DNA of 64,000 nucleotides from a virus: IMG/VR virus record IMGVR_UViG_3300045988_176782, positions 96,001 to 160,000 of that record. One strand, given 5' to 3'. Positions 1,960 through 64,000 of the stretch are shown piece after piece; position 1 is the first letter of the stretch; each line of letters begins with the position of its first letter. Made by a program: the position numbers and the translations under genes. The notes under the pieces are model-generated. The model ran no database searches. It was not told where the DNA came from and was given only the letters and a program-made list of their open reading frames with translations.

Positions 1960-1975
1960 AATTTGAAATTTCCAT

Positions 1976-2522: not shown

Positions 2523-2528
2523 AAAAGA

Positions 2529-6441: not shown

Positions 6442-6453
6442 GGTGCAAAATAA

Positions 6454-8339: not shown

Positions 8340-8985
8340 CCTTGCTAAAAAGATTTCTCCTCCTCTCCCTTGGGGTAATTAGGGTGAGGCAGGAGCGACA
8401 GATTTATTCTTAGATATAAGTGAATTTTATATGGCCGATCCGAATGGGAAAGCCATTGTTACTTTTACCCGTCAAGATGGACATACTTACATACACAAAT
8501 TTTAGTTAGAAAATAAAAACCTATTCATAACCTTAACTGCTACCGATACACAATTAGTGGGGAAATGTGAAGTTTAGATTAATTGGCTTTCTAAAGGGAA
8601 CCGATTAACTAAATCTTATAATTATAAAAGTTTTATTCTCCCCGCTGCGTCAGAAAAGCCCTTCCCATTAACAGAAGAAAGTGTTGCTGCTTTAGATAAT
8701 TTGCAATCTTATATTGAAGATGCCAAAAAAATTCTTGAAGAAGCTAAACTTAAAAAACAAATTATCTTCTGTGATGAACTTCCATTGGAAGGTTTGAGTG
8801 AGTTTGTCTATTTACTATCAAAAGATAAAGGATTATATTATTGGTCTGATGGCTGGTATTTGCTTAATCCTAAAAGTTCTGGCGGCGGTTTAGGAGATTA
8901 TGATTTTGTTTTTGGCGGCAATGCTGAAGGTCCCACAAATGAAAGTCAGTGGATTGGAGGTACTGCTAGCCAAGTAGACCCTTAA
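8320..8985 (+). CDS. structural protein (3 in-frame TAG)
   Basis: ATG 8320; TAG 8380, 8503, 8575 lead in frame into ORF 8701..8985. Confidence 0.6.
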
Positions 8986-9005
8986 TTCTTCATTGAGGTG
9001 ATATT

Positions 9006-10279: not shown

Positions 10280-11881
10280 ATGGCTGAAATTAAAAAGGTA
10301 TTTAATGCGTCTTCCTTACCTATTGCGTTTTCTCGTGGTAATCCTATTCCAATTGACAAGAGTTCTGTATGGTACTCTAAAACGGATATGGAAAATTACG
10401 CTAAAACTGGCGCAACCGCTTATGTTGGTCAAATTTTAGCATTAGTTGATGACGTAAATAACACTTCCACTGCATACATTATCACCGATACTACTGGCAC
10501 TTTAAAGGAAGTAGGCAGTGCAACTATAGGTGATAATAAAACTATTGTATTAAACGAAGGTGCGCTTTCTTTAAAAAACTGGGGCGTTGAATATTACCGT
10601 TGGGTAGATGCAGTAGGAGAAGAAGGGCAAGAAGGCTATGTTGCTGGGCATCATGAAAAGCAAATCGTTGATGAAACTCACCCTTGGATTGCTGGCTTAG
10701 AGCCTAAAGCAATCGCAGGCATTGATGGCACTTTTGAAATTGCTTGGTATCAGCCTTCTACTACAACTGTTGAAGGTTTAAATTCTGCTATTGGTTCTTT
10801 GCAAACTTCTGTAAATGAAATTAATAGTGCATTAGGTAATGCTGAAACTGCAGGCACCATTCGCGGTGATATTAAAGCTAATAATGATGCTTTAACCACT
10901 AAGCTCGCTCTCGCCGGTGGCACTATGACTGGTGATATTATCCTAACCGACGGCGGTAAAGCTATTTCTGATACTGCTGTTGCTGGTTTAATCGCATCTG
11001 CTGGTCATATTAAGCGCACAATTGTAGAAGTTTTACCTGAAGCCTCTACGGCTAATGCCAATACCATTTATATGGTTAAGGATGCTACAGTTACTTCTGG
11101 CGACGCATATAATGATTATATGCTTATTGACGGGGCACTAGTCCAAGTCGGCGGCACAAGCGTTGATTTAAGTGGCTATGCTACTACAGAAGCAGTAAGT
11201 GAAGTTCAAACTGCTTTAAACAACCATAAAGCTGACACAACTCTACACATTACTAATGAGGAACGTTCTGCTTGGAATAATAAGGTTGATAAGGCAGAGG
11301 GAAAATCTCTTGTTGCAGATGAGCAAATCACCAAGTTATTTGGTCTTGCTAACATCAAAACGATTGGGAAGAACCTTTCTCTTTCTGAAGATGGTGTTCT
11401 TGCTGCATTAGCAGAACAATATACTCTTCCTGCTGCAACCGCTAGCGACCTTGGTGGTGTCAAGAAGGGTGATGGCCTTTCTATTACCACTGAAGGTGTT
11501 TTAGCCGTTCAACTTAACACAGAAAAAGCCAACGGTCTAACTGTCAGTGCGGATGGCCTTGAATTAGCTCTAGCTTCCAATACTACCGCGGGTGCAATGA
11601 GTGCTGCCGAACATGTAAAGTTAGCCAATTTGGTAGAAAATGCACAAGCAAATATCATTGAGGGTGCTTTATTAGGTACTGTTGCCGCAACAATTGATGA
11701 GAATAAGAATCTTGTTATTCCTGTTGCAACAGAAACCGCGCTTGGCCTTGTTAAAGGTAGTAAGGAAGATAATGAAATTACAATCCAAGGAAATGGCGAA
11801 ATGGAAGTTAATCGTCTTTCTGTTGGTAAGTTATTTGTTCCAGAAAATGAAGAGTTCATTATTAATGGTGGGAATGCTTAA
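10280..11881 (+). CDS. tail-fibre protein
   Basis: ORF track frame 10274..11881; AAGGAGG SD ~10 nt before ATG 10280; no TAG. Confidence 0.8.
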   Translation: MAEIKKVFNASSLPIAFSRGNPIPIDKSSVWYSKTDMENYAKTGATAYVGQILALVDDVNNTSTAYIITDTTGTLKEVGSATIGDNKTIVLNEGALSLKNWGVEYYRWVDAVGEEGQEGYVAGHHEKQIVDETHPWIAGLEPKAIAGIDGTFEIAWYQPSTTTVEGLNSAIGSLQTSVNEINSALGNAETAGTIRGDIKANNDALTTKLALAGGTMTGDIILTDGGKAISDTAVAGLIASAGHIKRTIVEVLPEASTANANTIYMVKDATVTSGDAYNDYMLIDGALVQVGGTSVDLSGYATTEAVSEVQTALNNHKADTTLHITNEERSAWNNKVDKAEGKSLVADEQITKLFGLANIKTIGKNLSLSEDGVLAALAEQYTLPAATASDLGGVKKGDGLSITTEGVLAVQLNTEKANGLTVSADGLELALASNTTAGAMSAAEHVKLANLVENAQANIIEGALLGTVAATIDENKNLVIPVATETALGLVKGSKEDNEITIQGNGEMEVNRLSVGKLFVPENEEFIINGGNA

Positions 11882-44399: not shown

Positions 44400-45032
44400 A
44401 TGAATATAACAGTTAAGTTATATAATGATAAAAATATTAAATTCTATGGCTCTAATCAAATTACAATAGATTTAGAGGAATATTTGGTTGGATGTGTCGC
44501 GGCAGAAATAGGAAATGCACCACTTGAAGCTTGTAAGTCTTAGGCTGTGGCAAGCAGAACTTTTGCTCTAAATGCAATTAAAAGTAAAGGTTATATCACA
44601 GATAAAAGTTCTTCTGACCAAGCTTTCAGAAGTGAGCGTTTAACGGGTTATCCTAATGTAATTTAGGCCGTTAAAGATACCGAAGGAGAAGTTTTATATT
44701 ACAATGATAAACTCGCTAAAGCCTATTACTCTGCTTCTAATGGCGGCTATATGATTAGTGCAAAAACACGATGGGGTGGCGACCTGCCTTATTCTGTAAG
44801 TGGCGTTGATAAATACGATGATGGTAAAGGCAATGGCCACGGAGTTTAGTTGAGTTAGATTGGCGCGAAAAATCGTGCAAAAGCCGGTTTTGAATATAAG
44901 TAGATTTTAAGTTTTTATTATCCTGGGACAAATATTCATAAAATTGAAGAACAATCATATGAAATTAAAATCCCAATAACTTCTGAATTATATAAAAATC
45001 TCTCAACTGCTGAGGTTGAAATGAGGAGGTGA
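44400..45032 (+). CDS. SpoIID/LytB-domain protein (5 in-frame TAG)
   Basis: ATG 44400; one open frame to TGA 45030 with TAG at 44541, 44664, 44847, 44856, 44901; motifs EACKS-x-AVASRTFAL and GHGV-x-LS-x-IGA. Confidence 0.8.
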
Positions 45033-45040
45033 TGCCTCTT

Positions 45041-45840
45041 ATGACTACAAACGAACAAAAAATTATAAATTGGGCAGAGTCCAAAGTCGGTTGTGGTTAT
45101 GTATCGTTTGGGGAGCAACAGGATATGTATTAACAAAAACGAAGTTGCAAGAGTTAATCGCTCAGTACCCTCAATATGTTTCTGAATCAAAAAATAGTAA
45201 GTATCTTGGAAAGGCTGTATATGATTGCGCGTCGCTGGTTCGTTATGCTATGAAACAAATTGGCATTTCTATGGTAAGCGGCGCAACCAGCCAATGGAAG
45301 AAAACCAAATGGGCTCGTAAAGGCACAATTGATTAGCTTCCTAAAGATTAGGTTGCTTGCCTGTATCGTTGGACAGGCTCAGTTATGCAACATACTGGCA
45401 TCTATCTTGGCAATGGCTATGTAATTGACGCCCGTGGTAGTAGTGCTGGAGTTATTAAGTCTAAGCTTTCTTCTTATCCTTGGACCCACTTTGGGCAGCC
45501 GCAAGGACTAATTAAAAAAAAACAAACTAACGAGGTGATAAGCGTGAATTATCAAGCAAAAGTAGTAGCAGACAGTGGCTCAACAGTTCGTATGCGTTCT
45601 GCTCCTTCTAAAGAAGCTAGTGTTTCTGCCACCATTGCTCTTGGGGCAATTGTTGATGTTGTTGAAGAAGCAGAAGGTTGGTGCGGCATTGTATATAATG
45701 GGCAGAAAGGCTATATGATGAGCCAATTCCTTGAAAAAACTAAAAGCGAGGAGGGGTTATATTATGTCCGAATTAAATGCGGAAGTCAAAGTGAAGCAGA
45801 ACAATTAGCAAACCTCTTACGACAAGCAACAACAAACTGA
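45041..45840 (+). CDS. NlpC/P60 endopeptidase with C-terminal SH3b (endolysin); needs a -1 frame change near 45107-45110; 2 in-frame TAG
   Basis: ATG 45041 gives MTTNEQKIINWAESKVGCGYV (frame 2), and the motif continues as WGATGYV in ORF 45070..45336 (frame 1); TAG 45334 and 45349 join ORF 45385..45840. Confidence 0.65.
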
Positions 45841-46150
45841 AGAAGGAAAGCATTTCTGGCGTAATTTGTTCGCACGAGCAAACGAATTTAGTAAAAAAAT
45901 TGCATTAATAGATACTTTTTCTTACATTGCTTTAATTATTTTGCTATTAATTATAATGTGGATTAGACCTGATTTGGCGATGTATTGTGTTCAAATTGTG
46001 CCTTATCTTACAACCACAGTAGTATCTTTGCGTCTTGCTTATGCGGGAAAAGCTTCTGTGGAAAACTGGAAGAAAATTTCTGCATCTGTTCAAACCCTTG
46101 ATACTTCCGCCGATTTTAACGCGGAAGCAAAGGACGAAGAAAATACTTAG
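45764..46150 (+). CDS. membrane protein (second holin-like candidate; 1 in-frame TAG)
   Basis: GAGGAGGGG SD, ATG 45764, TAG 45806, continues into ORF 45866..46150; two TM helices. Confidence 0.55.
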
Positions 46151-46158
46151 GGCTAAAA

Positions 46159-46188
46159 TTTGATTTTTTTAAAAATTTAATCTATAAT
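46159..46188 (+). promoter_or_regulatory. sigma70/SigA-type promoter
   Basis: TTGATT-18-TATAAT then a leader hairpin TTTACAAAG...CTTTGTAAA and a T-run. Confidence 0.6.
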
Positions 46189-46257
46189 ATATTTACAAAG
46201 TGAGGGAAGGAATTCTCTCCTTTGTAAATGTTTTTTTATGAAAGAAGGATATAATAT

Positions 46258-46557
46258 ATGAAGTATTATTCTGAACAACTATCTAAGTTCTATGACACTG
46301 CCGAAGCCTGTGAGGCCGCAGAAGTAGAAGCTAAGTCTGCTCAAGAAGCCAAGAAGGCGGCGGAAAATGATGCTAAGGCCCAATTACAGATTCAACAAGA
46401 TACTGTAAATGCAATTCGTGAGCAATATAATGCTCTTGGCAAGCACTATAATGAAGAATACACTAAGCTAAGTAAGATGCTAAGTGCCTATTCTCGTAAG
46501 TATGGCTATGTGCCTAAGGGTTTTAGTACCTTAGATATGTTGTTTGATTTGCTGTAA
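46258..46557 (+). CDS. coiled-coil protein
   Basis: ORF track; GAAGGA SD; CTA/AAG-rich codon style. Confidence 0.6.
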   Translation: MKYYSEQLSKFYDTAEACEAAEVEAKSAQEAKKAAENDAKAQLQIQQDTVNAIREQYNALGKHYNEEYTKLSKMLSAYSRKYGYVPKGFSTLDMLFDLL

Positions 46558-46579
46558 GAAAATTTTATAGAATTAAATT

Positions 46580-46608
46580 TTGACAAAAATAAAAATTTAA
46601 TCTATAAT
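46580..46608 (+). promoter_or_regulatory. sigma70/SigA-type promoter driving the suppressor-tRNA transcript
   Basis: TTGACA-17-TATAAT then ATATACAGAAAGTGAGAG. Confidence 0.7.
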
Positions 46609-46741
46609 ATATACAGAAAGTGAGAGAGAAATCTTTCACCAGACTGGCGATAGGAGTGGTGCTTATGAAACACGCTTTTACTCTGACTGGAGATAAAACT
46701 CCACCTCGCTATAAAGGGGAGAAGTAATTCTCCCCATACGA

Positions 46742-46831
46742 TGGCCCTTAGTTGAATGGTGACAACAGCTGACTCTAAATCAGTAAGTGGGGTTGACCCC
46801 GCAGGTCTTGGTTCGAATCCAAGAGGGCTAA
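46742..46831 (+). tRNA. suppressor tRNA, anticodon CTA (reads UAG)
   Basis: Hand fold: acceptor TGGCCCT/AGGGCTA (U1:A72, G2:U71), D arm GTTG-AATGGTGA-CAAC, anticodon arm GCTGA-CTCTAAA-TCAGT, 22-nt variable arm with GGGG/CCCC stem, T arm CTTGG-TTCGAAT-CCAAG; no encoded CCA. Confidence 0.8.
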
Positions 46832-46978
46832 GGTATCAAATGGTCTGCCTTCTCGTGGCGATACTGACTGAAATAACGAAAGGCCTTTACAATGAAAGGG
46901 AGCATTAGAGTAATTAACTAATGAGTAATGTGCCCCATACACAAGCTTTCATATTGTTTATAATATGGGGTGAATTTT

Positions 46979-47815
46979 ATGGGATATATTTATAAAATTA
47001 CTAATGATATTAATGGAAAAGTTTATATTGGTAAAACATTAAATACGGTTGAAGCAAGATGGAAAGAACATTGTTATGATAAAGACCGGAGAAAAGTAGA
47101 AAATCGTCCGCTTTATTAGGCAATGAATAAATATGGTCTTCAGCATTTTTCTATTGAGACTGTAGAAGAATGTAAAACTAATTTAGAAGAACGAGAAGTT
47201 TATTGGATTAAATATTATAATTCTTATATTGGTTGGCCAAATAGCAATGGTTATAACGCTACTTTAGGTGGAGATGGAAAACAATATATTAATTATGATA
47301 TGATTCGTGAATTAGCAAATACAGAAAAAACTTAGGTTGAAATTGCTGCTATTGTTGGATGTAATGTTGATACTGTGGCAAAAGTTTATTTATAGGATAA
47401 TCAAGAAAATTATAATTATAATAAACGGATTAGTATCGCTGTTTATCAGAAAGATAAAGATGGTAATATTATTGCAGAGTATCCAACAATAAAATCCGCC
47501 GCAGAAGCAACCTTAACTAGTCCAAGTCATATTGGACAATGTTGTGCTGGGAAACGAAAAACTTGTGGTGGTTATTATTGGGAATATGTTAATACTAAAG
47601 AAGGTTAGACACGGCGAGCAATTAGTAATTAGCCTAAAGTAAATATCCCGCGTGAAATATTAAAATCATTAATAAGAGAACATCCTATGGAAGAAATTGG
47701 CCGTATATATGAATGTTCTGCAGCATCAATTAGACGATGTTGCGAACGGCTAAATCTTCCACGAACTAAAAAAGAAATCAATTCTTATTCTGATGAAGAA
47801 TGGTTTAAAATATAA
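46979..47815 (+). mobile_element. free-standing GIY-YIG homing endonuclease gene (5 in-frame TAG)
   Basis: MGYIYKITNDINGKVYIGKT...RWKEH...YWIKYYNS (GIY-YIG motifs); TAG 47117, 47333 and three more join the frame to TAA 47813; C-terminal HTH-like region. Confidence 0.8.
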
Positions 47816-47888
47816 AGTTGTTATGGTGTGAAAATCCAACCCATCAAGCCTCTTAATAATGCTCAAACCGATGGGAGTTTCATAGCTT

Positions 47889-47958
47889 AAGACGCATACA
47901 GCCAATTATTAATGTAAGTTTTTATTAGAAATAAAATAATACAAATAATTCGCGTCTT
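47889..47958 (+). repeat. hairpin-family element c
   Basis: AAGACGC ... GCGTCTT closing stem; 5' box CATACAGCCAA. Confidence 0.6.
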
Positions 47959-47986
47959 GTATTCATTTTCTTCTTTTCTTTTTTAA

Positions 47987-48050
47987 AAGACATATACAGC
48001 AAAAGATTTTACATCGCATAATAGTTGGCTGATTACCTACAATGTGTCTT
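47987..48050 (+). repeat. hairpin-family element h
   Basis: AAGACA ... TGTCTT closing stem; 5' box ATATACAGCAAAA. Confidence 0.55.
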
Positions 48051-48059
48051 GAAAAAAAT

Positions 48060-48088
48060 TTGACAAAAATAAAAAATTAAATTATAAT
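48060..48088 (+). promoter_or_regulatory. sigma70/SigA-type promoter driving the ~600-nt RNA
   Basis: TTGACA-17-TATAAT. Confidence 0.7.
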
Positions 48089-48100
48089 AAATCCATAATA

Positions 48101-56170: not shown

Positions 56171-56245
56171 TGCTCAATAGCTTAACGGTAGAGCAGCGAT
56201 TTCATAAGTCGTTAGATATAGGTTCAAATCCTATTTGAGCAACCA
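56171..56245 (+). tRNA. tRNA with CAT anticodon (Met or Ile2)
   Basis: Acceptor TGCTCAA/TTGAGCA, anticodon loop TTCATAA, T arm ATAGG-TTCAAAT-CCTAT, encoded CCA. Confidence 0.8.
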
Positions 56246-56372
56246 AGCGCTACACAGATTCCCACTAAACTACCACTGGCGTCTCAGACCCAATAGGAGA
56301 GCGGCGATATGTAGCTTGCGGAAGCGCTATATAAGAAGCGAAGTAAGTGGTGGGCGGTTTACCGCCCGATAT

Positions 56373-56446
56373 GCGGGTGTAGCTCAATGGTAGAATTCTA
56401 GCCTTCCAAGCTGGTTACGTGGGTTCGATTCCCATTACTCGCTCCA
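56373..56446 (+). tRNA. tRNA-Gly (TCC)
   Basis: Anticodon arm CTAGC-CTTCCAA-GCTGG, T arm GTGGG-TTCGATT-CCCAT, encoded CCA. Confidence 0.8.
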
Positions 56447-56709
56447 ATTGATTTCAAGTAGAACAAGTTAGCTTCTTGTGAAAGAAATCTGCGCTATGAC
56501 TACGGAAGACAGCGAGTCAGGGTTTGTAGAATTTTCCATACAATTCTACCGTGAACCAGTTCAATTACTGTTGCTCTGCTCTGCGACTGCGTGAAGGTCG
56601 GTTAAAAAGGTGAAGCGGGTTATTACTGCTTCCAAGAGGAGTAAGCGGGAGATGGGCGCAAAGTCTGCGGTGAGTCTAAATCCGTGCTAGCAAAATAGAC
56701 CAATATTAT
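56447..56709 (+). ncRNA. structured spacer RNA (~260 nt), unassigned
   Basis: No ORF; richer in G+C than surrounding DNA; hairpins incl. GTAGAATT/AATTCTAC (8 bp). Confidence 0.4.
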
Positions 56710-56784
56710 GGCTCCGTAGTCAAGCGGTTAAGACGCTGGGTTTTCATCCCAGAGACGCGAGTTCGACTCTCGCCGGAGCTACCA
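56710..56784 (+). tRNA. tRNA-Glu (TTC)
   Basis: Acceptor GGCTCCG/CGGAGCT, anticodon arm CTGGG-TTTTCAT-CCCAG, encoded CCA. Confidence 0.9.
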
Positions 56785-56789
56785 TAGTA

Positions 56790-56888
56790 AAGACACAGGT
56801 TAAACAGCAATACTTATAGTGGTTAATAAAATTTTTGTTGTATAAAATTTTTAATGGGTTCAAATCCCACAAAAGAACCCTGCGTCTT
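56790..56888 (+). repeat. hairpin-family element d (contains a T-arm-like GGGTTCAAATCCC)
   Basis: AAGAC ... GTCTT closing stem; box AAACAGCAATA; followed by GTTTTTT. Confidence 0.5.
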
Positions 56889-56895
56889 GTTTTTT

Positions 56896-56986
56896 GGAAA
56901 GGTGGCTGAGTTGGTTTAAAGTGACAGATTGCTAATCTGTTGAGGGATTTTCCCCTCCGGAGGTTCAAATCCTCTCCTTTCCGCCA
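56896..56986 (+). tRNA. tRNA-Ser (GCT), class II
   Basis: Acceptor GGAAAGG/CCTTTCC, anticodon arm ACAGA-TTGCTAA-TCTGT, long variable arm, encoded CCA. Confidence 0.9.
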
Positions 56987-56989
56987 TAT

Positions 56990-57068
56990 GTGCGCGAGTA
57001 ACCGAATTGGCATAGGTACTGGTCTAAGAAGCCAGGTTTTATGAGTTTAAGTCTCACCTTGCACACCA
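56990..57068 (+). tRNA. tRNA-like gene, apparent anticodon AAG, class-I body
   Basis: Acceptor GTGCGCG/CTTGCAC (one mismatch), anticodon arm CTGGT-CTAAGAA-GCCAG, atypical T loop TTTAAGT, A73, encoded CCA. Confidence 0.5.
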
Positions 57069-57071
57069 TTT

Positions 57072-57130
57072 AAGATACTAATAACGATTATTATTTTCTT
57101 TACAGTTTTTAAAGAACAAGAATGTGTCTT
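57072..57130 (+). repeat. hairpin-family element g
   Basis: AAGATAC ... GTGTCTT closing stem (one G:U). Confidence 0.45.
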
Positions 57131-57136
57131 GATTAT

Positions 57137-57211
57137 GGGGCAGTGACGCAATGGTAGCGTGTTAGCTTTGCAAGCTGAAAGTTGAGGGTTCAAATCCCTT
57201 CTGCTCCACCA
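57137..57211 (+). tRNA. tRNA-Ala (TGC)
   Basis: Acceptor GGGGCAG/CTGCTCC with G3:U70, anticodon arm TTAGC-TTTGCAA-GCTGA, A73, encoded CCA. Confidence 0.9.
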
Positions 57212-57331
57212 GACGTGCCAGTTTCTCCGATGGCCGTATAACTTAGAAATAAGTGAAGCAGAAAGTAGCTATTTTGCATCGGAAAGCAAGTCTCCTTATT
57301 CCTTGCCATACATAAAAGAATAAGGACGCGT

Positions 57332-57408
57332 GCGCTGATAGCCCAATTGGCAGAGGCAATAGACTTAGGATCTATTCAGTGAGAGTTCAAATCTCTCTTG
57401 GCGTACCA
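57332..57408 (+). tRNA. tRNA with anticodon TAG (reads CUA/CUG Leu codons) on a class-I body
   Basis: Anticodon arm ATAGA-CTTAGGA-TCTAT (perfect), 5-nt variable loop TCAGT, T arm GAGAG-TTCAAAT-CTCTC, A73, encoded CCA. Confidence 0.7.
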
Positions 57409-57411
57409 TTT

Positions 57412-57475
57412 AAGACAGTTACAGCAAATCCTCAAAAGATGCGATTGTTAAAATTACGTTATTATTTACTGTCTT
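57412..57475 (+). repeat. hairpin-family element e
   Basis: AAGACAGT ... ACTGTCTT 8-bp closing stem; box TTACAGCAAAT. Confidence 0.6.
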
Positions 57476-57482
57476 GCTATTT

Positions 57483-57546
57483 CGGGATATAGTGCGATGT
57501 GCTGATAACATGCAAGTCGCGGATTCAAATCCCGCCCCTGTAACCA
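57483..57546 (+). other. tRNA-like 3' fragment / long hairpin ending in CCA
   Basis: T-arm-like GCGGA-TTCAAAT-CCCGC and ...CCCTGTA-A-CCA, but no matching 5' acceptor strand; alternative long hairpin CGGGAT...ATCCCG with CTGATAA loop. Confidence 0.3.
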
Positions 57547-57547
57547 T

Positions 57548-57623
57548 CGGGGAATACGTCAATTGGCAGACGGCTTGCTTTGGGAGCAAGCAGCTCTCAG
57601 TTCAAATCTGAGTTCTCCGACCA
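57548..57623 (+). tRNA. tRNA-Pro (TGG)
   Basis: Acceptor CGGGGAA/TTCTCCG, anticodon arm CTTGC-TTTGGGA-GCAAG, encoded CCA. Confidence 0.9.
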
Positions 57624-57676
57624 GAGGAATTTATAATCCTTTTTCATAACAAATGGGAGAATTTCTCCCATCTCCT

Positions 57677-57747
57677 TGGCCGCAAGTAGAGAAATGTTAT
57701 CTCACCGTTTTAACGGAGTAGGCGGTTCAATTCCGCCCTCGGCCATT
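57677..57747 (+). other. tRNA-shaped RNA with a mini-hairpin in place of the anticodon arm
   Basis: D arm GAGA-AATGTTA-TCTC and T arm GGCGG-TTCAATT-CCGCC are clear; acceptor pairs 5 of 7; the anticodon position is CCGT-TTTA-ACGG (4-nt loop). Confidence 0.35.
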
Positions 57748-57876
57748 AGTCGCCCTGGCACAGGGAGAAATGTGTTGCTCGGTAGGAGGGCATCCGCGGA
57801 GAATATACTATCCTACACAAAACAAAATGGGACTGATGCAGGTCCCACTTATAAGGGGAAGTTCCCCTTTTAATAT

Positions 57877-57962
57877 GGAGGAGTGGCGGAATGACGAGAC
57901 GCAGTTGACTCAAAATCAACCACGAAGAAACACTGAGAGTTCAAATCTCTTCTCCTCTACCA
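57877..57962 (+). tRNA. tRNA-Leu (CAA), class II
   Basis: Acceptor GGAGGAG/CTCCTCT, anticodon arm GTTGA-CTCAAAA-TCAAC, long variable arm, A73, encoded CCA. Confidence 0.9.
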
Positions 57963-57968
57963 GGCCTT

Positions 57969-58042
57969 AAGACAGATCAGCAATTTATTTAGATGAATGC
58001 ATTTTTCACCTCCAAGGTAGGCTCTTGGTTGTATCCTGTCTT
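57969..58042 (+). repeat. hairpin-family element f
   Basis: AAGACAG ... CTGTCTT closing stem; box ATCAGCAATTT; followed by GTTTTT. Confidence 0.6.
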
Positions 58043-58071
58043 GTTTTTATTTCATATGAAAGGAACTAATT

Positions 58072-58311
58072 ATGATTAGAGCAAATATTGAATTAATTAC
58101 TGCTACTGACATGCGAAGTTTTATTTCTTGTGTTAATAGCGATGGCACCGCAGACAAGTATACTCTTGAGAATTTTGATGGCAGTTATCGTGCTGATGCA
58201 CGTTCTATGTTAGGTGTTGCCTACGCGACCGCGGAATTTGATAGTTTATTTCTTGTTAATAGAATTCATGATGGTGTTTTTCCAAAAGGTATTGATAAAT
58301 TTCGTAAGTGA
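58072..58311 (+). CDS. hypothetical protein
   Basis: ORF track; AAAGGAA SD. Confidence 0.5.
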   Translation: MIRANIELITATDMRSFISCVNSDGTADKYTLENFDGSYRADARSMLGVAYATAEFDSLFLVNRIHDGVFPKGIDKFRK

Positions 58312-58341
58312 AGTCGTAATGTAATATTACGACTTTATTTT
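58312..58341 (+). terminator. intrinsic terminator
   Basis: AGTCGTAAT / ATTACGACT hairpin then T-run. Confidence 0.8.
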
Positions 58342-58370
58342 TTGACAAAAGTAAATTTTTCTTTTATAAT
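58342..58370 (+). promoter_or_regulatory. sigma70/SigA-type promoter
   Basis: TTGACA-17-TATAAT. Confidence 0.7.
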
Positions 58371-58391
58371 AAAAGAAAAGGAGATAAAAAC

Positions 58392-58664
58392 ATGATAAAA
58401 AGTGTGCCTATTAAATATGAAGAAAGTATTGAAGTGCAACGTTTATTTCATAAGTATAATGCATTGCTTGCAGTTTTGGCTTATATGAATGATAATAGTT
58501 CTAAATATACAGATTTTTTAGATAAAAAAGTGAATGAAGCTACCGAGTTATATATTGAATTAGAACAAGCAAAAGATAAATATGGCATGCGATATAAGCC
58601 ACAAGGTGATTGGCAACATTATACTTTTGACTTTGATAATAATGTTATTATATATGAGGATTAA
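58392..58664 (+). CDS. hypothetical protein
   Basis: ORF track; AAGGAG SD. Confidence 0.5.
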   Translation: MIKSVPIKYEESIEVQRLFHKYNALLAVLAYMNDNSSKYTDFLDKKVNEATELYIELEQAKDKYGMRYKPQGDWQHYTFDFDNNVIIYED

Positions 58665-59969
58665 ATGAAAAAGTCTTATTTAGATTTAATTGCAACTTTA
58701 TATTCAGAACCTGATTTACGAAGTTGTAGAAACATTACCTTATAGGTTTGCGATGATTGCTGTTTAAAATGTTCATATTGCTATCAAATTCATAAAAGCC
58801 ACAATTATATGACAAAAGAGACTGCAAAAGCCATTATTGATTTACTATTTAGAATGTATGATGAAGATAAGCCAGACGCATTTATCAATCATACAACTCA
58901 TGGTATAATTCTTGATTTTATCGGTGGCGAGCCTCTAATGAACGTTGAAATTATGGAATTTGCTACTGAATACTTTATTGACCAATGTTTGCAAAAAAAT
59001 CACGAGTGGCTTTATAATTTTCGCACAAGTTTTGCAACAAATGGTATTCTTTATTTTGAACCAAAAGTATAGGCATATTTACAAAAATTTCACAATTTTA
59101 TTTCTATGACCGTTAGTATTGATGGCCCAAAAGAAATTCATGATATTTGCCGTCTTGACCGTGATGGTAATGGTAGTTTTGAACGAGCAAGTACCGCGGC
59201 GCACCATTATTGGGAATATTATGGAAAAGATGTCGGGGGACGAGATGAAACTAAAGTTACCATTGCTCCAGACAATTTATCTCAATTAAATAAAATTGTA
59301 GATTATTTCTTAAATGAAGGCGTTACAGTGATTAATGCCAATCCAGTTTATGAAGTAGAATGGACAGTAGAATAGGCAAAAATATATTATAATGAATTAA
59401 AAAAATTAGCAAATAAATTGTTATTAAATTTAGAAATTAAATGTAGTATTTTTGATAGCCATTAGAACGTCCCCTTGCCTATTAGTGATAATACGAACTG
59501 GTGCGGCGGTGATGGACATATGTTAGCTTTTGACCCGCACGGAAATGCTTATCCTTGTTTGAGATATATGGAAAGCTCTTTAGGTGGAGAAGTTGAGCCT
59601 TTAATTATTGGTGATACTAATGGTATTTATAATACGCCAGAAAGTCAAGAAATTAGGTGTAAACTTTGTACATTAACTCGTAGTAATTAGTCTACGGAAG
59701 AATGTACGCATTGTTCAATCGCCGCGGGCTGCTCTTGGTGCAGTGCTTGGAATTATCAGCAATTTAAAAAGATCGGTAAGCGTAGCACGAATATTTGTTG
59801 GATGCACCGAGCCGCAGCATTGGCCAATGTCTATTATTGGAATCTTAAATACCGTTTAGAAGAAAATGAAAAAAGATTCCCAATTTATCTTGAACAAAAA
59901 TATGCTTTGTAGATAATACCCTCTGAAGAATATGATTTGTTGCTTTCACTTTCTCAATGGGGAGAGTGA
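58665..59969 (+). CDS. radical SAM/SPASM enzyme (6 in-frame TAG)
   Basis: ATG 58665; one frame through TAG 58743, 59070, 59373, 59463, 59688, 59910 to TGA 59967, joining ORFs 58809.., 59106.., 59475..; CCLKCSYC (CxxxCxxC); C-terminal CTHCSIAAGCSWC. Confidence 0.75.
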
Positions 59970-59974
59970 TATTT

Positions 59975-60517
59975 ATGAGCTGGCTAAAAGGAGATAAAAT
60001 TACAGCAGAGGATTTCATTGCTATTAAAGAAAAAGTTAAAAACGAATTAGCTCGGCGAAATGCAGAAGGAAGTGTAGCAAACTATGCAACGAGCTATACT
60101 GATATGCCTGTATAGAAAGGGAAAATAAAAGTTAGCCATATTACAGAAATTGTTGAACCATTGAGTCATATTAATAATGTAGATTATGATTTAAATAAAC
60201 CAATTACAATAAAATCTTTAACTACAATTCAAACAATGTTAAATAGTTTAACCACAGCAGAAAAGGCTGCATCAACATTAGAAGCAACCGGGTGTAAAGC
60301 TTCCTGCACTGGTTTATGTTATACATCTTGTTCAGAAACGTGTCGTTCTTGTGGAGATAGTTGCAGTCAAAATTGTGATACTGGATGCAATTGGACTTGT
60401 AAAGGGTCATGCCGCAATACTTGTTCTGGACGCTGCAAAGGTAGCTGTGGAACTACTTGCCAATTGGGCTGTTCTAACAATTGCAAAGGAAGCAGTGTAG
60501 GTGGCTGTTCTGCATAA
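59975..60517 (+). CDS. protein with C-terminal CxxxC-repeat domain (1 in-frame TAG)
   Basis: ATG 59975, TAG 60113, continues into ORF 60161..60517; the last ~75 aa have Cys at nearly every 4th residue (CKASCTGLCYTSCSETCRSCGDSCSQNCDTGCNWTCKGSC...). Confidence 0.7.
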
Positions 60518-60754
60518 AATATACAGTAAATTAAATAAATATTAAGTGCTATAATGATCGAACAAAAATTTATTCCTTTAATAATTCAATATAATATATT
60601 CAATATATTAAATACTAAATTGCTTGTATTATTAGATTTGATTTTCCTAACCACAAAACCGTTGCTTTAGAATCTATTATAAAATAAGGCATAGAATAAT
60701 TTCCTAATTTTAACCTAAAACAAATTTAATCTAGGAGCTTCGTTGCTCCTACTT

Positions 60755-60828
60755 GCCGAAATAGCATAATGGTAGTGCAAGGCTCTTGTAAAGCTTAGAT
60801 TTCAGTTCAATTCTGAATTTCGGCTCCA
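60755..60828 (+). tRNA. tRNA-Thr (TGT)
   Basis: Acceptor GCCGAAA/TTTCGGC, anticodon arm AGGCT-CTTGTAA-AGCTT, T arm TTCAG-TTCAATT-CTGAA, encoded CCA. Confidence 0.9.
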
Positions 60829-61270
60829 TTTAACCAGACTGAGAGTTAGAGGTAAATACCTGCTCGTGATGATTTTAAATGTAATCATGAAAACCTCATA
60901 AAATATGGCACGCAGAGAGCTAGGCTCTACAATGGAAACGCTATACGAGATAGGAGACCCCTTACAGACGTAACAGTGTATGCCAAGATGCCGCGGCATA
61001 AGGTGCAATTCCTGAGTAATTGGTGTCGGCAAGTCCGAGCTGTTTTAAAGGAGCGGGCAGAGCGCAAAAATATGATGGGACAACTGCTTACCTCATATTT
61101 TGCTCAGTAGGCGGTCGTGCCGCAGGAAGGCCCACAGGTATGTGGAGTATAGCAAGTCGGGGAGTTAGATGCAAGCCAGAATTGGGTTAGAACCGACAGG
61201 GAGAATAATTCTCTAACAGAGTAAAGGTATGGATGCGGCAATGAGACGCGACCTTTACTCTTTTTATTTT
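60829..61270 (+). ncRNA. structured non-coding RNA (~440 nt), unassigned
   Basis: No ORF on the + strand; G+C-enriched; long-range pair GTTAGAG (60845) / CTCTAAC (61213); ends in terminator AGAGTAAAGGT...ACCTTTACTCT plus T-run; directly follows tRNA-Thr. Confidence 0.55.
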
Positions 61271-61275
61271 AAAAT

Positions 61276-61304
61276 TTGACTTTTCTAAAATTTTCTCCTA
61301 TAAT
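61276..61304 (+). promoter_or_regulatory. sigma70/SigA-type promoter
   Basis: TTGACT-17-TATAAT. Confidence 0.65.
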
Positions 61305-61365
61305 ATGTCTATAAAAGATAAGCAATAGCTCTATTGCTTCCAAAATGAAAAGGAGAAAAGAAAAC

Positions 61366-62853
61366 ATGAATAATCTACTAAATTCCCTAAAGCAAGAAAC
61401 CAACTATACCTACACCACCAATGGCGCAGTAGCGCACAAATCTACCCTAAACAAAGTCCTTGATCTATTTGCCCTTGGCGGCGCTTATCGTGTAAAGAGT
61501 GACAATGACGTTATTCTTCTCTTTAAAGAAGCATATGACGAGAATCCTGAACTCGCGCTAAAGTGCTTGTTCTTTATTCGTGATATTCGCGGCAATGGTT
61601 ATGGTGAACGTCGCTTTTTCCGTGTATGCCTTCATTGGCTTGCTACACAACATCCCGAAGTTGTGAAGCGAAATATTAACTATATTCCATTTGTTGGCCG
61701 TTATGACGACCTCTATGCTATAATGGATACTCCTTGTATGCTGGATGCTTTTACTTTCTTTGATCGCCAACTGCGACTTGATATGGAATGCCAAACTCCC
61801 AGTTTATGTGCAAAGTGGATTTGGTCAATGAATTGTTCTTCTGCCGAACATAAGAAATATGGTAAGGCACTTGCAGATTATATGCGTTTAACTCCTAAGC
61901 AATATCGTAAGATGCTTACTGGTTTGCGCGCGAAGATTAAGATTGTTGAAACTCTAATGTCTCAGAATCGTTGGGATGAAATTCAATTTGATAAATTACC
62001 TTCTAAGGCCGGCTTTAAGTATCGTAATGCTTTTGCAAAGAACGATTACACTAAAGAACGCTATGAAGCCTTTATGAAGTCTAAGACCACTAAGGTAAAT
62101 GCAAAAACCTTATTCCCCTATGAAGTCGTAAAGCAAGCTATTAACGCTGATTGGCAAGATGAACTAACCTGCAATACTCTTGAGAAGTATTGGGAGAATC
62201 TTGCTGACTATTTCAATAATGCTACTTTTAATGCTCTGGCCATTGTTGATACTTCTGGTTCTATGCGTAGTGGTGCTGCTTCCGCCGCGCCTATTGATGT
62301 GGCAATTTCTCTTGGTATGTATTGTGCGGAAAAAGCTAATGGTCCTTTTAAGAATCATTATATCAGTTTTTCCTCTAAGCCTCAATTGATTGAAATTAAG
62401 GGTGTCAATTTTGTTGACAAGGTTCAGCGTATTTACCAAACTAATCTTTGTGAAAATACTAACATTGAAGCTACTTTTGATCTTCTTTTAAATAATATTG
62501 TGAAGTATAATTTAAATGAAGAAGATATTCCAGAGTATCTTGTAATTATTTCCGATATGCAGTGGGACGAAGGGGTTTGTGAAATTCGCGGGCGATACTA
62601 TATGCCTGCGGCGAATCCTCAAACTTTAATTGACCAAATTAAAGAAAAGTGGAAAAGTGTCGGAATAAGGATGCCTAAATTAATTTTCTGGAATGTCAAC
62701 GCAAAACATCCTGTCATCCCTGCTCTTGATGGAAATTACAGTTATATCAGCGGCTTTAGCCCCGCGATTTTTGAACAAATTATGACCGGTAAAACCGGCG
62801 TAGAACTAATGCTTGAAGCACTAAGTTCTGAACGTTATAAAGACATTCATTAA
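61366..62853 (+). CDS. helical N-domain plus vWA protein (DUF2828-like; TROVE/Ro60-like layout?)
   Basis: ORF track frame 61345..; AAGGAG SD before ATG 61366; N-terminus TTNGAVAHKSTLNKVLDLFALGG; MIDAS-like VDTSGSM. Confidence 0.7.
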   Translation: MNNLLNSLKQETNYTYTTNGAVAHKSTLNKVLDLFALGGAYRVKSDNDVILLFKEAYDENPELALKCLFFIRDIRGNGYGERRFFRVCLHWLATQHPEVVKRNINYIPFVGRYDDLYAIMDTPCMLDAFTFFDRQLRLDMECQTPSLCAKWIWSMNCSSAEHKKYGKALADYMRLTPKQYRKMLTGLRAKIKIVETLMSQNRWDEIQFDKLPSKAGFKYRNAFAKNDYTKERYEAFMKSKTTKVNAKTLFPYEVVKQAINADWQDELTCNTLEKYWENLADYFNNATFNALAIVDTSGSMRSGAASAAPIDVAISLGMYCAEKANGPFKNHYISFSSKPQLIEIKGVNFVDKVQRIYQTNLCENTNIEATFDLLLNNIVKYNLNEEDIPEYLVIISDMQWDEGVCEIRGRYYMPAANPQTLIDQIKEKWKSVGIRMPKLIFWNVNAKHPVIPALDGNYSYISGFSPAIFEQIMTGKTGVELMLEALSSERYKDIH

Positions 62854-62879
62854 GAGAGCTTAGGCTCTCTTATTTTTTT
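62852..62879 (+). terminator. intrinsic terminator
   Basis: AAGAGAGC-TTAG-GCTCTCTT then T-run. Confidence 0.85.
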
Positions 62880-62894
62880 AGGTGGTGAAACTTT

Positions 62895-64000
62895 ATGAGT
62901 GGAGGATTTTCTGGCGTTGGCGGCTATGCTGTTATTCTAACTCCAGAAGGCGCATCGCTATATGGCGGCGGAAATGCAAGTTTTGAAGCACTTGTCACTG
63001 CTGCAACAGGCCAAATAGATATTGAGGCAACAACATAGGAAATTCTTGCTATTTTATATTAGCAATATGAAGAACAAACAATAATAGAAAGGAATATACG
63101 GGCAGCTTATGGCAATGAAACTATTGAAAATATTATAAAATCCTTACGCGGAGAAACTTCTAAAGTAATGAGCGGCACACCAGAAATGATACAAAATCTT
63201 AAGCAAAATTTGGCCGACTGGCAGAACAAAGAAAAGAGTCGTAAAGAAACAATCGCCCAAATTCGTGGAGATTCTGAACATTATTATCAAGTTTATAATA
63301 CTTTAGTAGACGGATTAGTTGCCTTAGCTAATCAATTAACTAATATGGATGAAAAAGCATTACGAACTGGTCCTGGTATCATTGAAACATTAATTCATAA
63401 ATGGGAAAATTCTTCCAGTCAATTAGAGCAAGAAGCCGCGAAAATGGCGCAATCTTTTTCCAAATTAGATTTAGATAATGAATCATTTATTAAAGATATG
63501 AATAGTACCTTTGACAAAATTAGAGAGACAATTAACAAAGAAGACATGGCCTATTCTTATGACCCTACTTCTAATACCACTGAACTTAAAAATCCAGAAT
63601 TAACCGCGGCTATTTAGGAATTACTTGCCTTTCAAGAAAAAATCCGCAGTGATATAGATAAAAAAAGTAAACGCAGTAAAAAGAAAAAACAAAGACTTCT
63701 TGCTATGTGGAATAATATTAAATTTGCCAATTGGAATGCAAGAACCAGTAAACTTGGTCAGGCATTAAATCAAAAAGGTAAAAACGACCCAATGATAATT
63801 TTAAATAGTTTAAGGCAAAAAGTCTATGATGTGGCTAAATAGCAATTAGAGGAAAACACTGGACGAAAAGCCACAGATAAAGAGCAACAAAAACTTCGTT
63901 CTTCAATTACAGAAATTCAAACTAAAGCTGTCAATGAGCTAAGTGAACAAACTAAAGACTATGCAGTACGGCAACTTATTTCACTTGTATTTGGCGACCA
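62895..64000 (+). CDS. large coiled-coil protein, partial (at least 4 in-frame TAG)
   Basis: ATG 62895 after GGTGGTGA; the frame stays open through TAG 63036, 63060, 63615, 63840 to the window edge and includes ORF 63168..63617. Confidence 0.6.

What the first reader, a model, noticed from the sequence alone, without database searches (positions are those of the whole stretch)
60755..62853. tRNA-Thr, a ~440-nt structured RNA and a vWA/DUF2828-like protein: possibly a Ro60-Y-RNA-like module
tRNA-Thr (60755-60828) runs directly into ~440 nt of G+C-enriched non-coding sequence. That sequence has a long-range pair (GTTAGAG at 60845 with CTCTAAC at 61213), an AAGTCCGAGC segment and a strong terminator at 61218-61270. 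The next gene, with its own promoter, encodes a helical N-domain (TTNGAVAHKSTLNKVLDLF...) followed by a vWA domain with a MIDAS motif (DTSGSM). That is the domain order of Ro60/TROVE proteins. Bacterial and phage Ro60 orthologs are known to sit next to their Y RNAs, some of which carry tRNA-like modules. This protein-RNA pairing is only an inference from adjacency and architecture.
Basis: inference. Interest (0 to 1): 0.7.

Follow-up and report, generated by a model that had tools for sequence, protein, structure and literature searches.

The report
Phage Ro60-like protein beside unclassified RNAs
A gut phage encodes a Ro60-like RNA-binding ring protein at the end of its tRNA gene cluster, but the large RNA next to it is an unclassified pair of RNA cassettes, and the likelier Y-RNA-type partners are small stem-enclosed RNAs elsewhere in the cluster.

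Summary
The sequence features are mostly real: tRNA-Thr, about 435 nt of G+C-rich non-coding sequence, a terminator hairpin, a promoter, and a DUF2828/DUF7788 protein with a DxSxS MIDAS motif. The protein's AlphaFold model matches only Ro60/Rsr over its full length (top 8 PDB hits). Databases already call this family "Ro-like RNA-binding protein".

The RNA is not a Y RNA. It has no Rfam match, including YrlA, although a positive control worked. It consists of two independent cassettes (about 105 nt and 330 nt) that occur separately in related phages. The 7-nt long-range pair is no more than chance and is not conserved. GTCCGA mutates in sister phages. A 4.1-kb insertion separates the RNA from the gene in sister phages, and neither cassette occurs in about 80 other DUF2828 loci. 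The cassettes are under purifying selection (5% divergence against 16-17% at synonymous sites), so they are probably functional RNAs of unknown role.

DUF2828 genes sit just downstream of tRNA arrays (64 of 80 loci, same strand). Many loci carry YrlA-like RNAs or a related stem-enclosed "AAGAC…AUACAGCAAA…GUCUU" RNA. This window has three copies of that RNA. Verdict: right concept, wrong RNA.

The parts
60755..60828 (+). tRNA-Thr (anticodon UGU), CCA encoded
   Evidence: ARAGORN; Rfam tRNA 66.4 bits. It is 98.6% identical in the sister phage and nearly identical in L016.
60829..60933 (+). 5' RNA cassette (about 105 nt), unclassified
   Evidence: No Rfam hit. Found at 79% identity in L002 and 74% in L108/L109, where tRNA-Asn follows it rather than the 3' cassette. 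Its 3' hairpin shows two compensatory pairs (AGAG/CUCU <-> GGUG/CACC). It is 94.3% identical between window and L022, against 83-84% at third codon positions.
60934..61262 (+). 3' RNA cassette (about 330 nt), unclassified. It includes the terminal 11-bp hairpin 61218-61261, which here is followed by a U-run (61262-61270) and acts as an intrinsic terminator.
   Evidence: No Rfam hit. Present at 95% identity in L016, flush between tRNA-Thr and tRNA-Ser, without the 5' cassette and without the U-run. Divergence is 17/328 against 84/496 at third codon positions, Fisher p 2e-7. The + strand folds at -102 kcal/mol against -83 for the - strand. In 8 variants there is one compensatory pair and 12 further pair types, with 99.7% of cells paired.
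61276..61304 (+). sigma-70-type promoter-like site for the DUF2828 gene
   Evidence: TTGACT-17-TATAAT, 11 of 12 matches. The stretch 61261-61399 is duplicated on both sides of the 4.1-kb insertion in sister phages.
61320..61339 (+). 5'-UTR hairpin, 15 nt upstream of the RBS
   Evidence: A hairpin lies at the same distance (about 15-18 nt from the RBS) in roughly 40 of 69 distinct DUF2828 loci. Stems covary and the apex is often CUUGUCCAAG.
61366..62853 (+). Ro60-like protein gene (Pfam DUF2828 + DUF7788; 495 aa; an alternative upstream ATG lies at 61345)
   Evidence: Pfam; PHROG 850 'RNA-binding protein'. AF2 pLDDT 87. Foldseek top 8 are Ro60/Rsr over the full length. MIDAS DTSGSM is invariant.
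62851..62872 (+). terminator-like hairpin after the gene
55161..55222 (+). W1: stem-enclosed AUACAGCAAA element, a candidate short Y-like RNA just upstream of tRNA-Trp
   Evidence: Motif plus 7-bp closing stem. Fold z -2.4.
55308..55385 (+). W2: AAGACGCAU…AUACAGCUAA…AUGCGUCUU element between tRNA-Trp and tRNA-Asn
   Evidence: Motif plus 9-bp closing stem. Fold z -4.5, with 0 of 200 shuffles as good.
47987..48050 (+). W3: AAGACAUAU…AUACAGCAAA…AUGUGUCUU element between the abiF RNA and the ROOL RNA
   Evidence: Conserved in the IMG/VR relative L173. The fold alone is not significant (z -0.65).
55229..57962 (+). tRNA array (at least 14 tRNAs, same strand) with conserved non-tRNA spacers
49515..50843 (+). 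RNA ligase (PF09414) in the same RNA-centred region. A YqeY-like gene lies at 49028-49498.

Best explanation
The stretch is the distal end of the tRNA/non-coding-RNA island of a roughly 165-kb, TAG-recoded gut phage.

tRNA-Thr is followed by two independent, selectively constrained structured-RNA cassettes of about 105 nt and about 330 nt. They behave like shuffled gene cassettes. I infer that they are transcribed with the tRNA and cut out by the host tRNA-processing enzymes as stable RNAs. In this phage the terminal hairpin of the 3' cassette doubles as the terminator. Their molecular role is unknown.

The downstream gene encodes a divergent Ro60-like ring protein (helical toroid plus vWA/MIDAS). 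This family is anchored immediately downstream of tRNA arrays in many unrelated phages. I infer that it acts on tRNA-type RNAs (quality control, repair or protection of tRNAs during infection), like bacterial Rsr with RtcB.

Its most likely Y-RNA-type partners are not the adjacent 435-nt RNA. They are small RNAs closed by an AAGAC…/…GUCUU stem and carrying AUACAGCAAA. Their long forms contain a YrlA-like permuted tRNA-like domain. Three short copies (W1-W3) lie in this window's RNA island.
For: Shown:
- Modularity and cassette behaviour.
- No known RNA family, with a working YrlA positive control.
- Purifying selection on both cassettes.
- Strand asymmetry of folding.
- Flush packing between tRNAs in L016.
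- Ro60-like fold and existing Ro-like annotation in 704 phage records.
- tRNAs within 6 kb in 64 of 80 IMG/VR DUF2828 loci, nearly all upstream. All 388 tRNAs are on the gene's strand, and gaps are as small as 71-79 nt.
- The same linkage in Felixounavirus, Bacillus, Listeria, Enterococcus, Campylobacter and Vibrio phages.
- RtcB and an RNA ligase beside the gene in Listeria phage P61, and an RNA ligase in this window.
- YrlA hits in DUF2828 loci: Porthos 47.8 bits, E 1e-7, in the unannotated gap upstream of the gene; L051 40 bits.
- Permuted tRNA-like elements in at least 22 of about 85 loci.
- ATACAGCNAA occurs 54 times on the + strand and 6 on the - strand, against about 4 expected.
- In IMG/VR, 40 of 122 motif instances have the closing stem. 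Of these, 33 have same-strand tRNAs nearby and 14 have a same-strand DUF2828 in the locus. Of the 82 without a stem, 1 has tRNAs nearby and 0 have DUF2828.

Inferred: processing into stable RNAs, the protein's action on tRNAs, and binding of W1-W3 by the protein.
Against: - No expression or binding data exist.
- The cassettes are known only from about 12 contigs that are at least 93% identical (plus L002-type copies of the 5' cassette). Covariation support for the 3' cassette is therefore thin: one compensatory pair, and 13 of 500 shuffles reach the observed score.
- The near-identity between L016 and the window could reflect recent transfer rather than constraint.
- The AUACAGCAAA elements could be processing or terminator stems of the island rather than protein ligands. 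I could not separate their link to DUF2828 from their link to tRNA arrays, because no set of tRNA arrays lacking DUF2828 was examined.
- Sequence-level homology of DUF2828 to TROVE was not shown (hhalign probability 5%).
- Because this phage lacks a YrlA-type RNA, the adjacent RNA remains a possible substitute partner.
Confidence: 0.55

Rival explanations
1. One reading: the adjacent 435-nt RNA (or one of its cassettes) is the dedicated Y-RNA-like partner of the Ro60-like protein. It binds the ring and gates or tethers it.
For: - The RNA lies 100 nt upstream on the same strand. This is the arrangement seen for Yrl1/Yrl2 and phiRo60 in Thermus phage phiLo (PMC12135203) and for YrlA and rsr (PMC4201824).
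- This phage has no YrlA-type RNA in the 19 kb scanned, although about a quarter of DUF2828 loci do. A substitute would be plausible.
- The RNA is under selection.
- Every contig that carries a cassette and extends far enough has DUF2828 within 0.1-4.7 kb downstream.
Against: - No YrlA or Y_RNA similarity, no GNCGAA, and GUCCGA is not conserved.
- No terminal Ro-binding stem is conserved.
- The cassettes shuffle independently of the gene.
- A 4.1-kb insertion lies between RNA and gene in sister phages.
- Neither cassette occurs in about 80 other DUF2828 loci.
- Many DUF2828 genes have only 71-79 nt between the last tRNA and the gene.
Confidence: 0.15
2. The cassettes have no function of their own as RNAs. 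They would be decayed tRNA-island sequence, recombination scars or a DNA-level element carried along with tRNA-Thr, and their conservation would reflect recent horizontal transfer.
For: - Distribution is very narrow: 6 metagenome contigs, 2 IMG/VR contigs and no GTDB genome.
- tRNA-Thr and the 3' cassette are 95-99% identical between phages whose neighbouring genes are about 65% identical, which indicates recent exchange.
- Covariation is weak.
Against: - Within the clade the cassettes diverge three times more slowly than synonymous sites, and more slowly than the neighbouring AT-rich spacer (94.8% against 83-84% and 91.5%).
- Substitutions in predicted stems mostly keep pairing.
- The + strand folds 19 kcal/mol better than the - strand.
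- The 5' cassette persists at 74-79% identity with compensatory changes.
Confidence: 0.1
3. The 330-nt cassette is an autonomous large structured RNA of the GOLLD/ROOL kind (an RNA-only assembly or decoy) with no relation to the neighbouring protein.
For: - GOLLD and ROOL are phage RNAs that lie near tRNA islands and have no known protein partner (PMC12286853 and PMC5737381).
- This window carries a ROOL RNA (295.8 bits).
- Listeria phage P61 has a ROOL-like RNA inside the array upstream of its DUF2828 gene (89 bits).
Against: - No similarity to either family.
- It is smaller (330 nt against 580-800 nt).
- There is no evidence of multistem junctions or pseudoknots supported by covariation.
Confidence: 0.15

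Closest known systems
Ro60/Rsr with Y RNAs (YrlA/YrlB): the bacterial RYPER system and the rsr-rtcBA RNA-repair operon
   Same: - The predicted fold is a ring-shaped helical domain plus vWA/MIDAS.
- The gene neighbours tRNA-like RNAs on the same strand.
- RtcB or an RNA ligase lies nearby in some phages.
- YrlA-like permuted tRNA-like RNAs occur in part of the family's loci.
   Different: - No TROVE sequence signature.
- The adjacent RNA in this window is not YrlA-like.
- The candidate partners carry AUACAGCAAA instead of GNCGAA.
- The gene is anchored to full tRNA arrays rather than to one or two Y RNAs.
phiRo60 with Yrl1/Yrl2 of Thermus phage phiLo, and TROVE-type Ro of actinophages
   Same: A phage-encoded Ro-type protein with small RNAs encoded just upstream (PMC12135203; McWolfish control).
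   Different: Those proteins are canonical TROVE proteins, found in 357 phage records that are almost all actinophages. The DUF2828 type is a separate sequence family with 704 records across Proteobacteria, Firmicutes, Actinobacteria and cyanophages.
GOLLD and ROOL RNAs
   Same: Large structured phage RNAs embedded in or next to tRNA islands, with unknown function. A ROOL copy lies 12 kb upstream in this window.
   Different: No sequence or structure match. The RNA here is smaller, much rarer, and its structure is not established.
Phage T4 'species 1' and 'species 2' stable RNAs of the tRNA cluster (from my own knowledge, not checked here)
   Same: Non-tRNA stable RNAs encoded between tRNA genes and released by tRNA-processing enzymes. 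Their function is still unknown.
   Different: No homology was tested. The T4 RNAs are shorter.

Membership tests
Ro60/TROVE proteins | TROVE domain sequence signature (Pfam PF05731) plus vWA_Ro60 (PF25045) | tested here: not met
   The window protein hits only DUF2828, DUF7788 and a weak VWA_2. Human Ro60 run the same way gives TROVE and vWA_Ro60. A profile search of PDB sequences finds no Ro60.
Ro60/TROVE proteins | Ring of helical repeats closed by a vWA domain (fold) | tested here: met
   Foldseek ranks 1-8 are 1yvr, 2nvo, 9nfa, 9nf8, 1yvp, 9nep and 9nen, with 554-593 aligned columns, probability 1.00 and TM 0.37-0.53. The model has pLDDT 87 and pTM 0.88. Ring closure itself was not inspected.
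Ro60/TROVE proteins | MIDAS motif DxSxS in the vWA domain | tested here: met
   DTSGSM at residues 302-307 of the 502-aa ORF. D, S and S are invariant in 82 homologs. Compare DVSASM in human Ro60 and DVSGSM in Rsr.
Ro60/TROVE proteins | Detectable sequence homology to Ro60 by profile-profile comparison | tested here: inconclusive
   hhalign of A5 against a 3-sequence Ro60 alignment gives probability 5%. Only 47 C-terminal columns align. Both profiles are shallow.
Ro60/TROVE proteins | Binds Y RNAs or misfolded RNAs | not testable with these tools
   Needs RIP, CLIP or EMSA.
Y RNA / YrlA (for the RNA at 60829-61262) | Match to the Rfam Y_RNA or YrlA covariance models | tested here: not met
   No hit at E<=10 in 60700-61400, nor at E<=1 in 45000-64000. 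Positive control: YrlA at 36 bits next to the McWolfish Ro gene.
Y RNA / YrlA (for the RNA at 60829-61262) | 5'/3' terminal stem carrying the Ro-binding motif (GGUCCGA or GNCGAAN0-1G) | tested here: not met
   GNCGAA and CGAA are absent. The single GTCCGA at 61033 becomes GACCGA in sister phages and is internal. The proposed terminal pair is at chance level and not conserved.
Y RNA / YrlA (for the RNA at 60829-61262) | tRNA-like domain (T arm, closed acceptor-like hairpin, D arm) | tested here: not met
   The descriptor scan and CM R2 give no hit in 60829-61262. The best hit anywhere in the window is 26 bits at a tRNA junction. ARAGORN with introns and tmRNA finds nothing.
Y RNA / YrlA (for the RNA at 60829-61262) | Encoded within about 4 kb of the Ro gene on the same strand | tested here: met
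   The RNA lies 100 nt upstream here. The distance is 1.2-1.3 kb in L016 and L002 and 4.2-4.7 kb in sister phages. The whole tRNA array meets this criterion too, so it does not discriminate.
GOLLD / ROOL large phage RNAs | Match to the family covariance model | tested here: not met
   ROOL is found elsewhere in the window at 48109-48684.
GOLLD / ROOL large phage RNAs | Location in a phage next to tRNA genes | tested here: met
Stem-enclosed AUACAGCAAA RNAs (family defined here; applies to W1-W3, not to the flagged RNA) | 7-9-bp closing stem (AAGACNN / NNGUCUU), AUACAGCNAA directly 3' of the 5' arm, same strand as the tRNAs | tested here: met
   W1, W2 and W3 meet it. The motif is absent from 60829-61262.

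The most novel reading that the evidence does not exclude
DUF2828 proteins are the Ro60 equivalent of most large tailed phages. Together with a hitherto undescribed family of Y-like RNAs they would form a widespread phage Ro-Y ribonucleoprotein system that is physically anchored to tRNA islands and serves tRNA surveillance or repair. These RNAs have an AAGAC/GUCUU closing stem plus AUACAGCAAA. Short forms resemble W1-W3 here, and long forms carry a YrlA-type tRNA-like domain. In this lineage the 105-nt and 330-nt cassettes would be additional lineage-specific clients or substitutes that dock on the same ring.
Probability: 0.35. Interest if true: 0.7.

Novelty: new variant of a known kind. Interest (0 to 1): 0.55.

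Why it matters
Ro60-Y RNA particles are known from animals, about 5% of bacteria and a few actinophages. The phage cases are barely studied.

If the DUF2828 family is a functional Ro60 with its own Y-like RNAs, Ro-type RNA surveillance would be a common accessory of phage tRNA arrays. The family has 704 cultured-phage records, twice as many as the TROVE type, and they include Felix O1-like, Listeria, Staphylococcus, Enterococcus and Bacillus phages. That would bear on why phages carry tRNA arrays at all, for example to counter host tRNA-cleaving defences, and it is testable in cultured phages.

The two RNA cassettes add to the small list of conserved non-tRNA RNAs embedded in phage tRNA islands (GOLLD, ROOL and the T4 stable RNAs). 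None of those has a known function.

Tried and rejected
- **RNase P RNA.** AAGUCCG and UAGAUG…AGAACC resemble CR-I, CR-IV and CR-V by eye. However, no Rfam RNase P hit appears at E<=10, the would-be bulged U is A in sister phages, and no complementary P4 strand exists.
- **tmRNA, intron-containing tRNA, permuted tRNA.** ARAGORN with -m and -i finds nothing.
- **Group I or II intron, riboswitch, 6S, SRP.** No Rfam hit.
- **Small ORF.** There is no ORF of at least 100 aa with TAG read as sense. A 10-codon micro-ORF in the 5' cassette is not conserved in L002 (read).
- **More distant homologs of the cassettes.** Tried: blastn against 50,697 phage records; four IMG/VR pattern scans; one metagenome scan; two GTDB scans; nhmmer and a CM over about 1 Mb of DUF2828 loci. 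Only relatives at least 93% identical turned up, plus L002/L108-type copies of the 5' cassette.
- **Module B as a paralog.** Module B (L016 4866-5190) shares only short motifs with the 3' cassette and is itself narrowly distributed.
- **Spacer clustering.** Single-linkage clustering of inter-tRNA spacers was uninformative, giving one giant cluster.
- **CM R2.** The model for the permuted tRNA-like core also scores ordinary tRNA-tRNA junctions. Hits had to be filtered against ARAGORN.
- **Profile-profile link to TROVE.** Inconclusive with the shallow alignments available.
Full report
**Context**

The window is part of a roughly 165-kb uncultured human-gut phage. IMG/VR contig 3300045988_170892 is collinear with it at 91% identity. 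Many genes carry in-frame TAG codons, which align with CAA or CAG in relatives. A tRNA with anticodon CUA lies at 46742.

The region 46-63 kb is RNA-centred, and everything in it is on the + strand:
- a GIY-YIG endonuclease;
- an abiF-motif RNA and a ROOL RNA (295.8 bits);
- a YqeY-like protein and an RNA ligase;
- a tRNA array of at least 14 genes at 55229-57962;
- small genes and a radical-SAM/Cys-rich-peptide cassette;
- then the flagged stretch.

**Observation check**

These features are real:
- tRNA-Thr(UGU) at 60755-60828.
- About 435 nt of G+C-enriched sequence without an ORF.
- A long terminal hairpin followed by a U-run.
- A strong promoter-like site at 61276-61304.
- A DUF2828 + DUF7788 gene whose DTSGSM motif is invariant in 82 homologs.

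Two details do not hold up:
- The 7-nt long-range pair is what chance gives: 8 such pairs against 4.2 +/- 2.5 in shuffles. Its 3' half also exists in another phage without the 5' half.
- AAGTCCGAGC is AAGACCGAGT in sister phages.

**The RNA is two cassettes**

- In L002, L108 and L109, whose DUF2828 is 63% identical, tRNA-Thr is followed by a 74-79% identical copy of 60832-60932 and then directly by tRNA-Asn.
- In L016, a relative of L002, a tRNA-Thr almost identical to the window's is followed after 3 nt by a 95% identical copy of 60934-61262. tRNA-Ser then starts right after the terminal hairpin, with no 5' cassette and no U-run.
- So the 5' cassette (about 105 nt) and the 3' cassette (about 330 nt) are separate units that recombine among phages.
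- Being flush between tRNAs argues that they are RNA genes released by tRNA-processing enzymes. This is an inference.

**Are the cassettes functional?**

- Between the window and its IMG/VR relative, the cassettes are 94.3% and 94.8% identical. The upstream AT-rich spacer is 91.5% identical, and third codon positions of flanking genes are 83-84% identical. The difference is significant (Fisher p 2e-7).
- The + strand of the 3' cassette folds 19 kcal/mol better than the - strand.
- In eight variants, 99.7% of predicted pair cells stay paired. There is one A-U to G-C compensatory pair and several wobble-preserving changes.
- With sequences at least 93% identical this is weak structural proof.
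- The 5' cassette has two compensatory pairs in its 3' hairpin.

**What the RNA is not**

- It matches no Rfam family at E<=10, including Y_RNA, YrlA, RNase P, tmRNA, introns, GOLLD and ROOL.
- ARAGORN finds no intron-containing tRNA and no tmRNA.
- GNCGAA is absent.
- The YrlA negative is meaningful. The same scan finds YrlA 190 nt upstream of the TROVE-type Ro gene of mycobacteriophage McWolfish.

**Distribution and linkage**

- Full copies were found only in 6 metagenome contigs and 2 IMG/VR contigs, all at least 93% identical, plus L016.
- No copy was found in GTDB genomes or in 50,697 phage records.
- In sister phages (L001, L005/L009, L010, L014) a 4.1-kb insertion lies between the RNA and the gene. 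It carries another radical-SAM/peptide cassette and is bounded by a duplicated promoter.
- In L003, L017 and L018 the gene is preceded by a 72-75-aa gene and no RNA.
- Neither cassette occurs in 80 further DUF2828 loci.

**The protein**

- The AF2 model is confident (pLDDT 87, pTM 0.88). It shows an N-terminal beta-hairpin, about 18 helices, and then an alpha/beta vWA domain.
- Foldseek against the PDB returns Ro60 or Rsr as the eight best hits, aligned over the full length (E 1e-7 to 7e-6, TM up to 0.53). From rank 9 onwards the hits cover the vWA domain only.
- At sequence level it is not a TROVE protein.
- PHROG 850 is annotated "RNA-binding protein".
- 704 phage records carry homologs, many annotated "Ro-like RNA binding protein". 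The fold assignment is therefore already in the databases.

**Family-level findings**

1. *Anchoring to tRNA arrays.*
   - 64 of 80 IMG/VR loci have tRNAs within 6 kb, almost always upstream.
   - All 388 tRNAs are on the gene's strand, and the gap can be only 71-79 nt.
   - The last tRNA is tRNA-Cys(GCA) in 37 of 61 loci.
   - The same arrangement holds in Salmonella phage Mushroom, Bacillus phage Thrax2, Listeria phage P61 (with RtcB and an RNA ligase just downstream), Enterococcus phage Porthos, Campylobacter phage F368 and Vibrio phage nt-1.
2. *YrlA-like RNAs.*
   - Porthos has three YrlA matches. The best scores 47.8 bits (E 1e-7, full model) and lies in the unannotated gap upstream of its DUF2828 gene. 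L051 has one.
   - I used a descriptor (T arm, closed hairpin, D arm) and a CM, and filtered the hits against tRNA-tRNA junctions. Such elements occur in at least 22 of about 85 DUF2828 loci. One lies 150 nt downstream of the DUF2828-type "Ro-like" gene of mycobacteriophage MkaliMitinis3.
3. *A shared frame.*
   - These RNAs share a 7-9-bp closing stem (AAGACNN / NNGUCUU, covarying) with AUACAGCNAA directly after the 5' arm.
   - In the DUF2828 loci the motif occurs 54 times on the + strand and 6 times on the - strand, against about 4 expected.
   - In an IMG/VR scan, 40 of 122 motif instances have the closing stem. Of these, 33 have same-strand tRNAs within 3 kb and 14 have a same-strand DUF2828 in the fetched locus, mostly 0.1-2.3 kb downstream. 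By contig name, at least 8 more lie on contigs known to encode DUF2828.
   - Of the 82 instances without a stem, 1 has tRNAs nearby and 0 have DUF2828.
   - Element lengths are bimodal: 54-80 nt, and 94-161 nt with the tRNA-like insert.
   - This parallels Salmonella YrlB and YrlA (my comparison).
   - I found no description of this association in the held literature.

**This window's copies**

The window has no YrlA-type RNA. It does have three short stem-enclosed elements:
- W3 at 47987-48050, between abiF and ROOL;
- W1 at 55161-55222;
- W2 at 55308-55385.

W1 and W2 flank the first tRNA of the array. W2 folds far better than shuffles (z -4.5). None of this motif lies in the flagged RNA.

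**Conclusion**

- The specific RNA it pointed to is most likely not the partner. It is a pair of unclassified, constrained RNA cassettes of unknown role.
The rest is split between an autonomous ROOL-like RNA and non-functional hitchhiking sequence.
- All functional statements are inference from fold, synteny and motif statistics. They cover processing, tRNA surveillance and binding of W1-W3.

Noticed in passing
window 47840-47876 and 48109-48684: An abiF-motif RNA (49.9 bits) and a full-length ROOL RNA (295.8 bits, E 6e-67) lie 12 kb upstream of the finding, on the same strand. A GIY-YIG endonuclease gene lies just before them.
   Followed up: partly
window 46742-46831 and many genes, e.g. 58665-59969 and 62895-64000: There is a 90-nt tRNA with anticodon CUA, and in-frame TAG codons occur in a subset of genes. 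In close relatives these TAGs align mainly with CAA or CAG, so TAG is read as Gln.
   Followed up: partly
window 58665-60517; L010 6079-9161: A radical-SAM/SPASM-type enzyme gene is followed by a gene for a Cys-rich repetitive peptide (CxxxC repeats). This looks like a RiPP-type cassette. Sister phages carry a second, different cassette of the same kind inserted between the RNA and the DUF2828 gene.
   Followed up: partly
window 61320-61339; homologous position in about 40 of 69 distinct DUF2828 loci: A hairpin lies 15-18 nt upstream of the ribosome-binding site of DUF2828 genes. The stems covary and the apex is often CUUGUCCAAG. It could be an autoregulatory operator or an mRNA-stabilising element.
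   Followed up: partly
L024-L101 (IMG/VR DUF2828 loci): The last tRNA before the DUF2828 gene is tRNA-Cys(GCA) in 37 of 61 loci, even though these tRNAs differ widely in sequence. Several have long variable arms (82-87 nt), which is unusual for tRNA-Cys.
   Followed up: no
window 55903-56018 and 56992-57065: One tRNA has a 43-nt insertion in the anticodon loop. ARAGORN with introns calls it Phe(AAA), and Rfam scores it at 48 bits. A second tRNA is seen only by Rfam (39.5 bits).
   Followed up: no
window 55469-55902, 56247-56349; L016 4866-5190, L002 4865-5187: Other long G+C-rich spacers lie between tRNAs. One shares the motif GAGGTAAATA with the 5' cassette. Another is homologous to the first 100 nt of a 320-nt inter-tRNA RNA ('module B') of L002 and L016. 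These are probably further unclassified RNAs.
   Followed up: partly
L102 (Listeria virus P61) 279-4363, 3454-4005, 5001-6521, 7852-9063, 10623-11497: The gene order is tRNA array with an embedded ROOL-like RNA (89 bits), then DUF2828, then RtcB ('tRNA-splicing ligase'), then NADAR, then an RNA ligase. This looks like an RNA-repair neighbourhood that parallels bacterial rsr-rtcBA.
   Followed up: partly
L104 (Enterococcus phage Porthos) 1118-1468 and 4267-4997: A phage tmRNA (143.7 bits) lies inside the tRNA array. The 730-nt unannotated gap upstream of the DUF2828 gene holds two tandem YrlA-like RNAs.
   Followed up: yes
window 5226-5360 and 47887-47905: There are two further ATACAGCNAA occurrences. 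One has a non-AAGAC closing stem and lies far from the RNA island. The other is a second 5' arm (TTAAGACGC) that competes for the 3' arm of W3.
   Followed up: no
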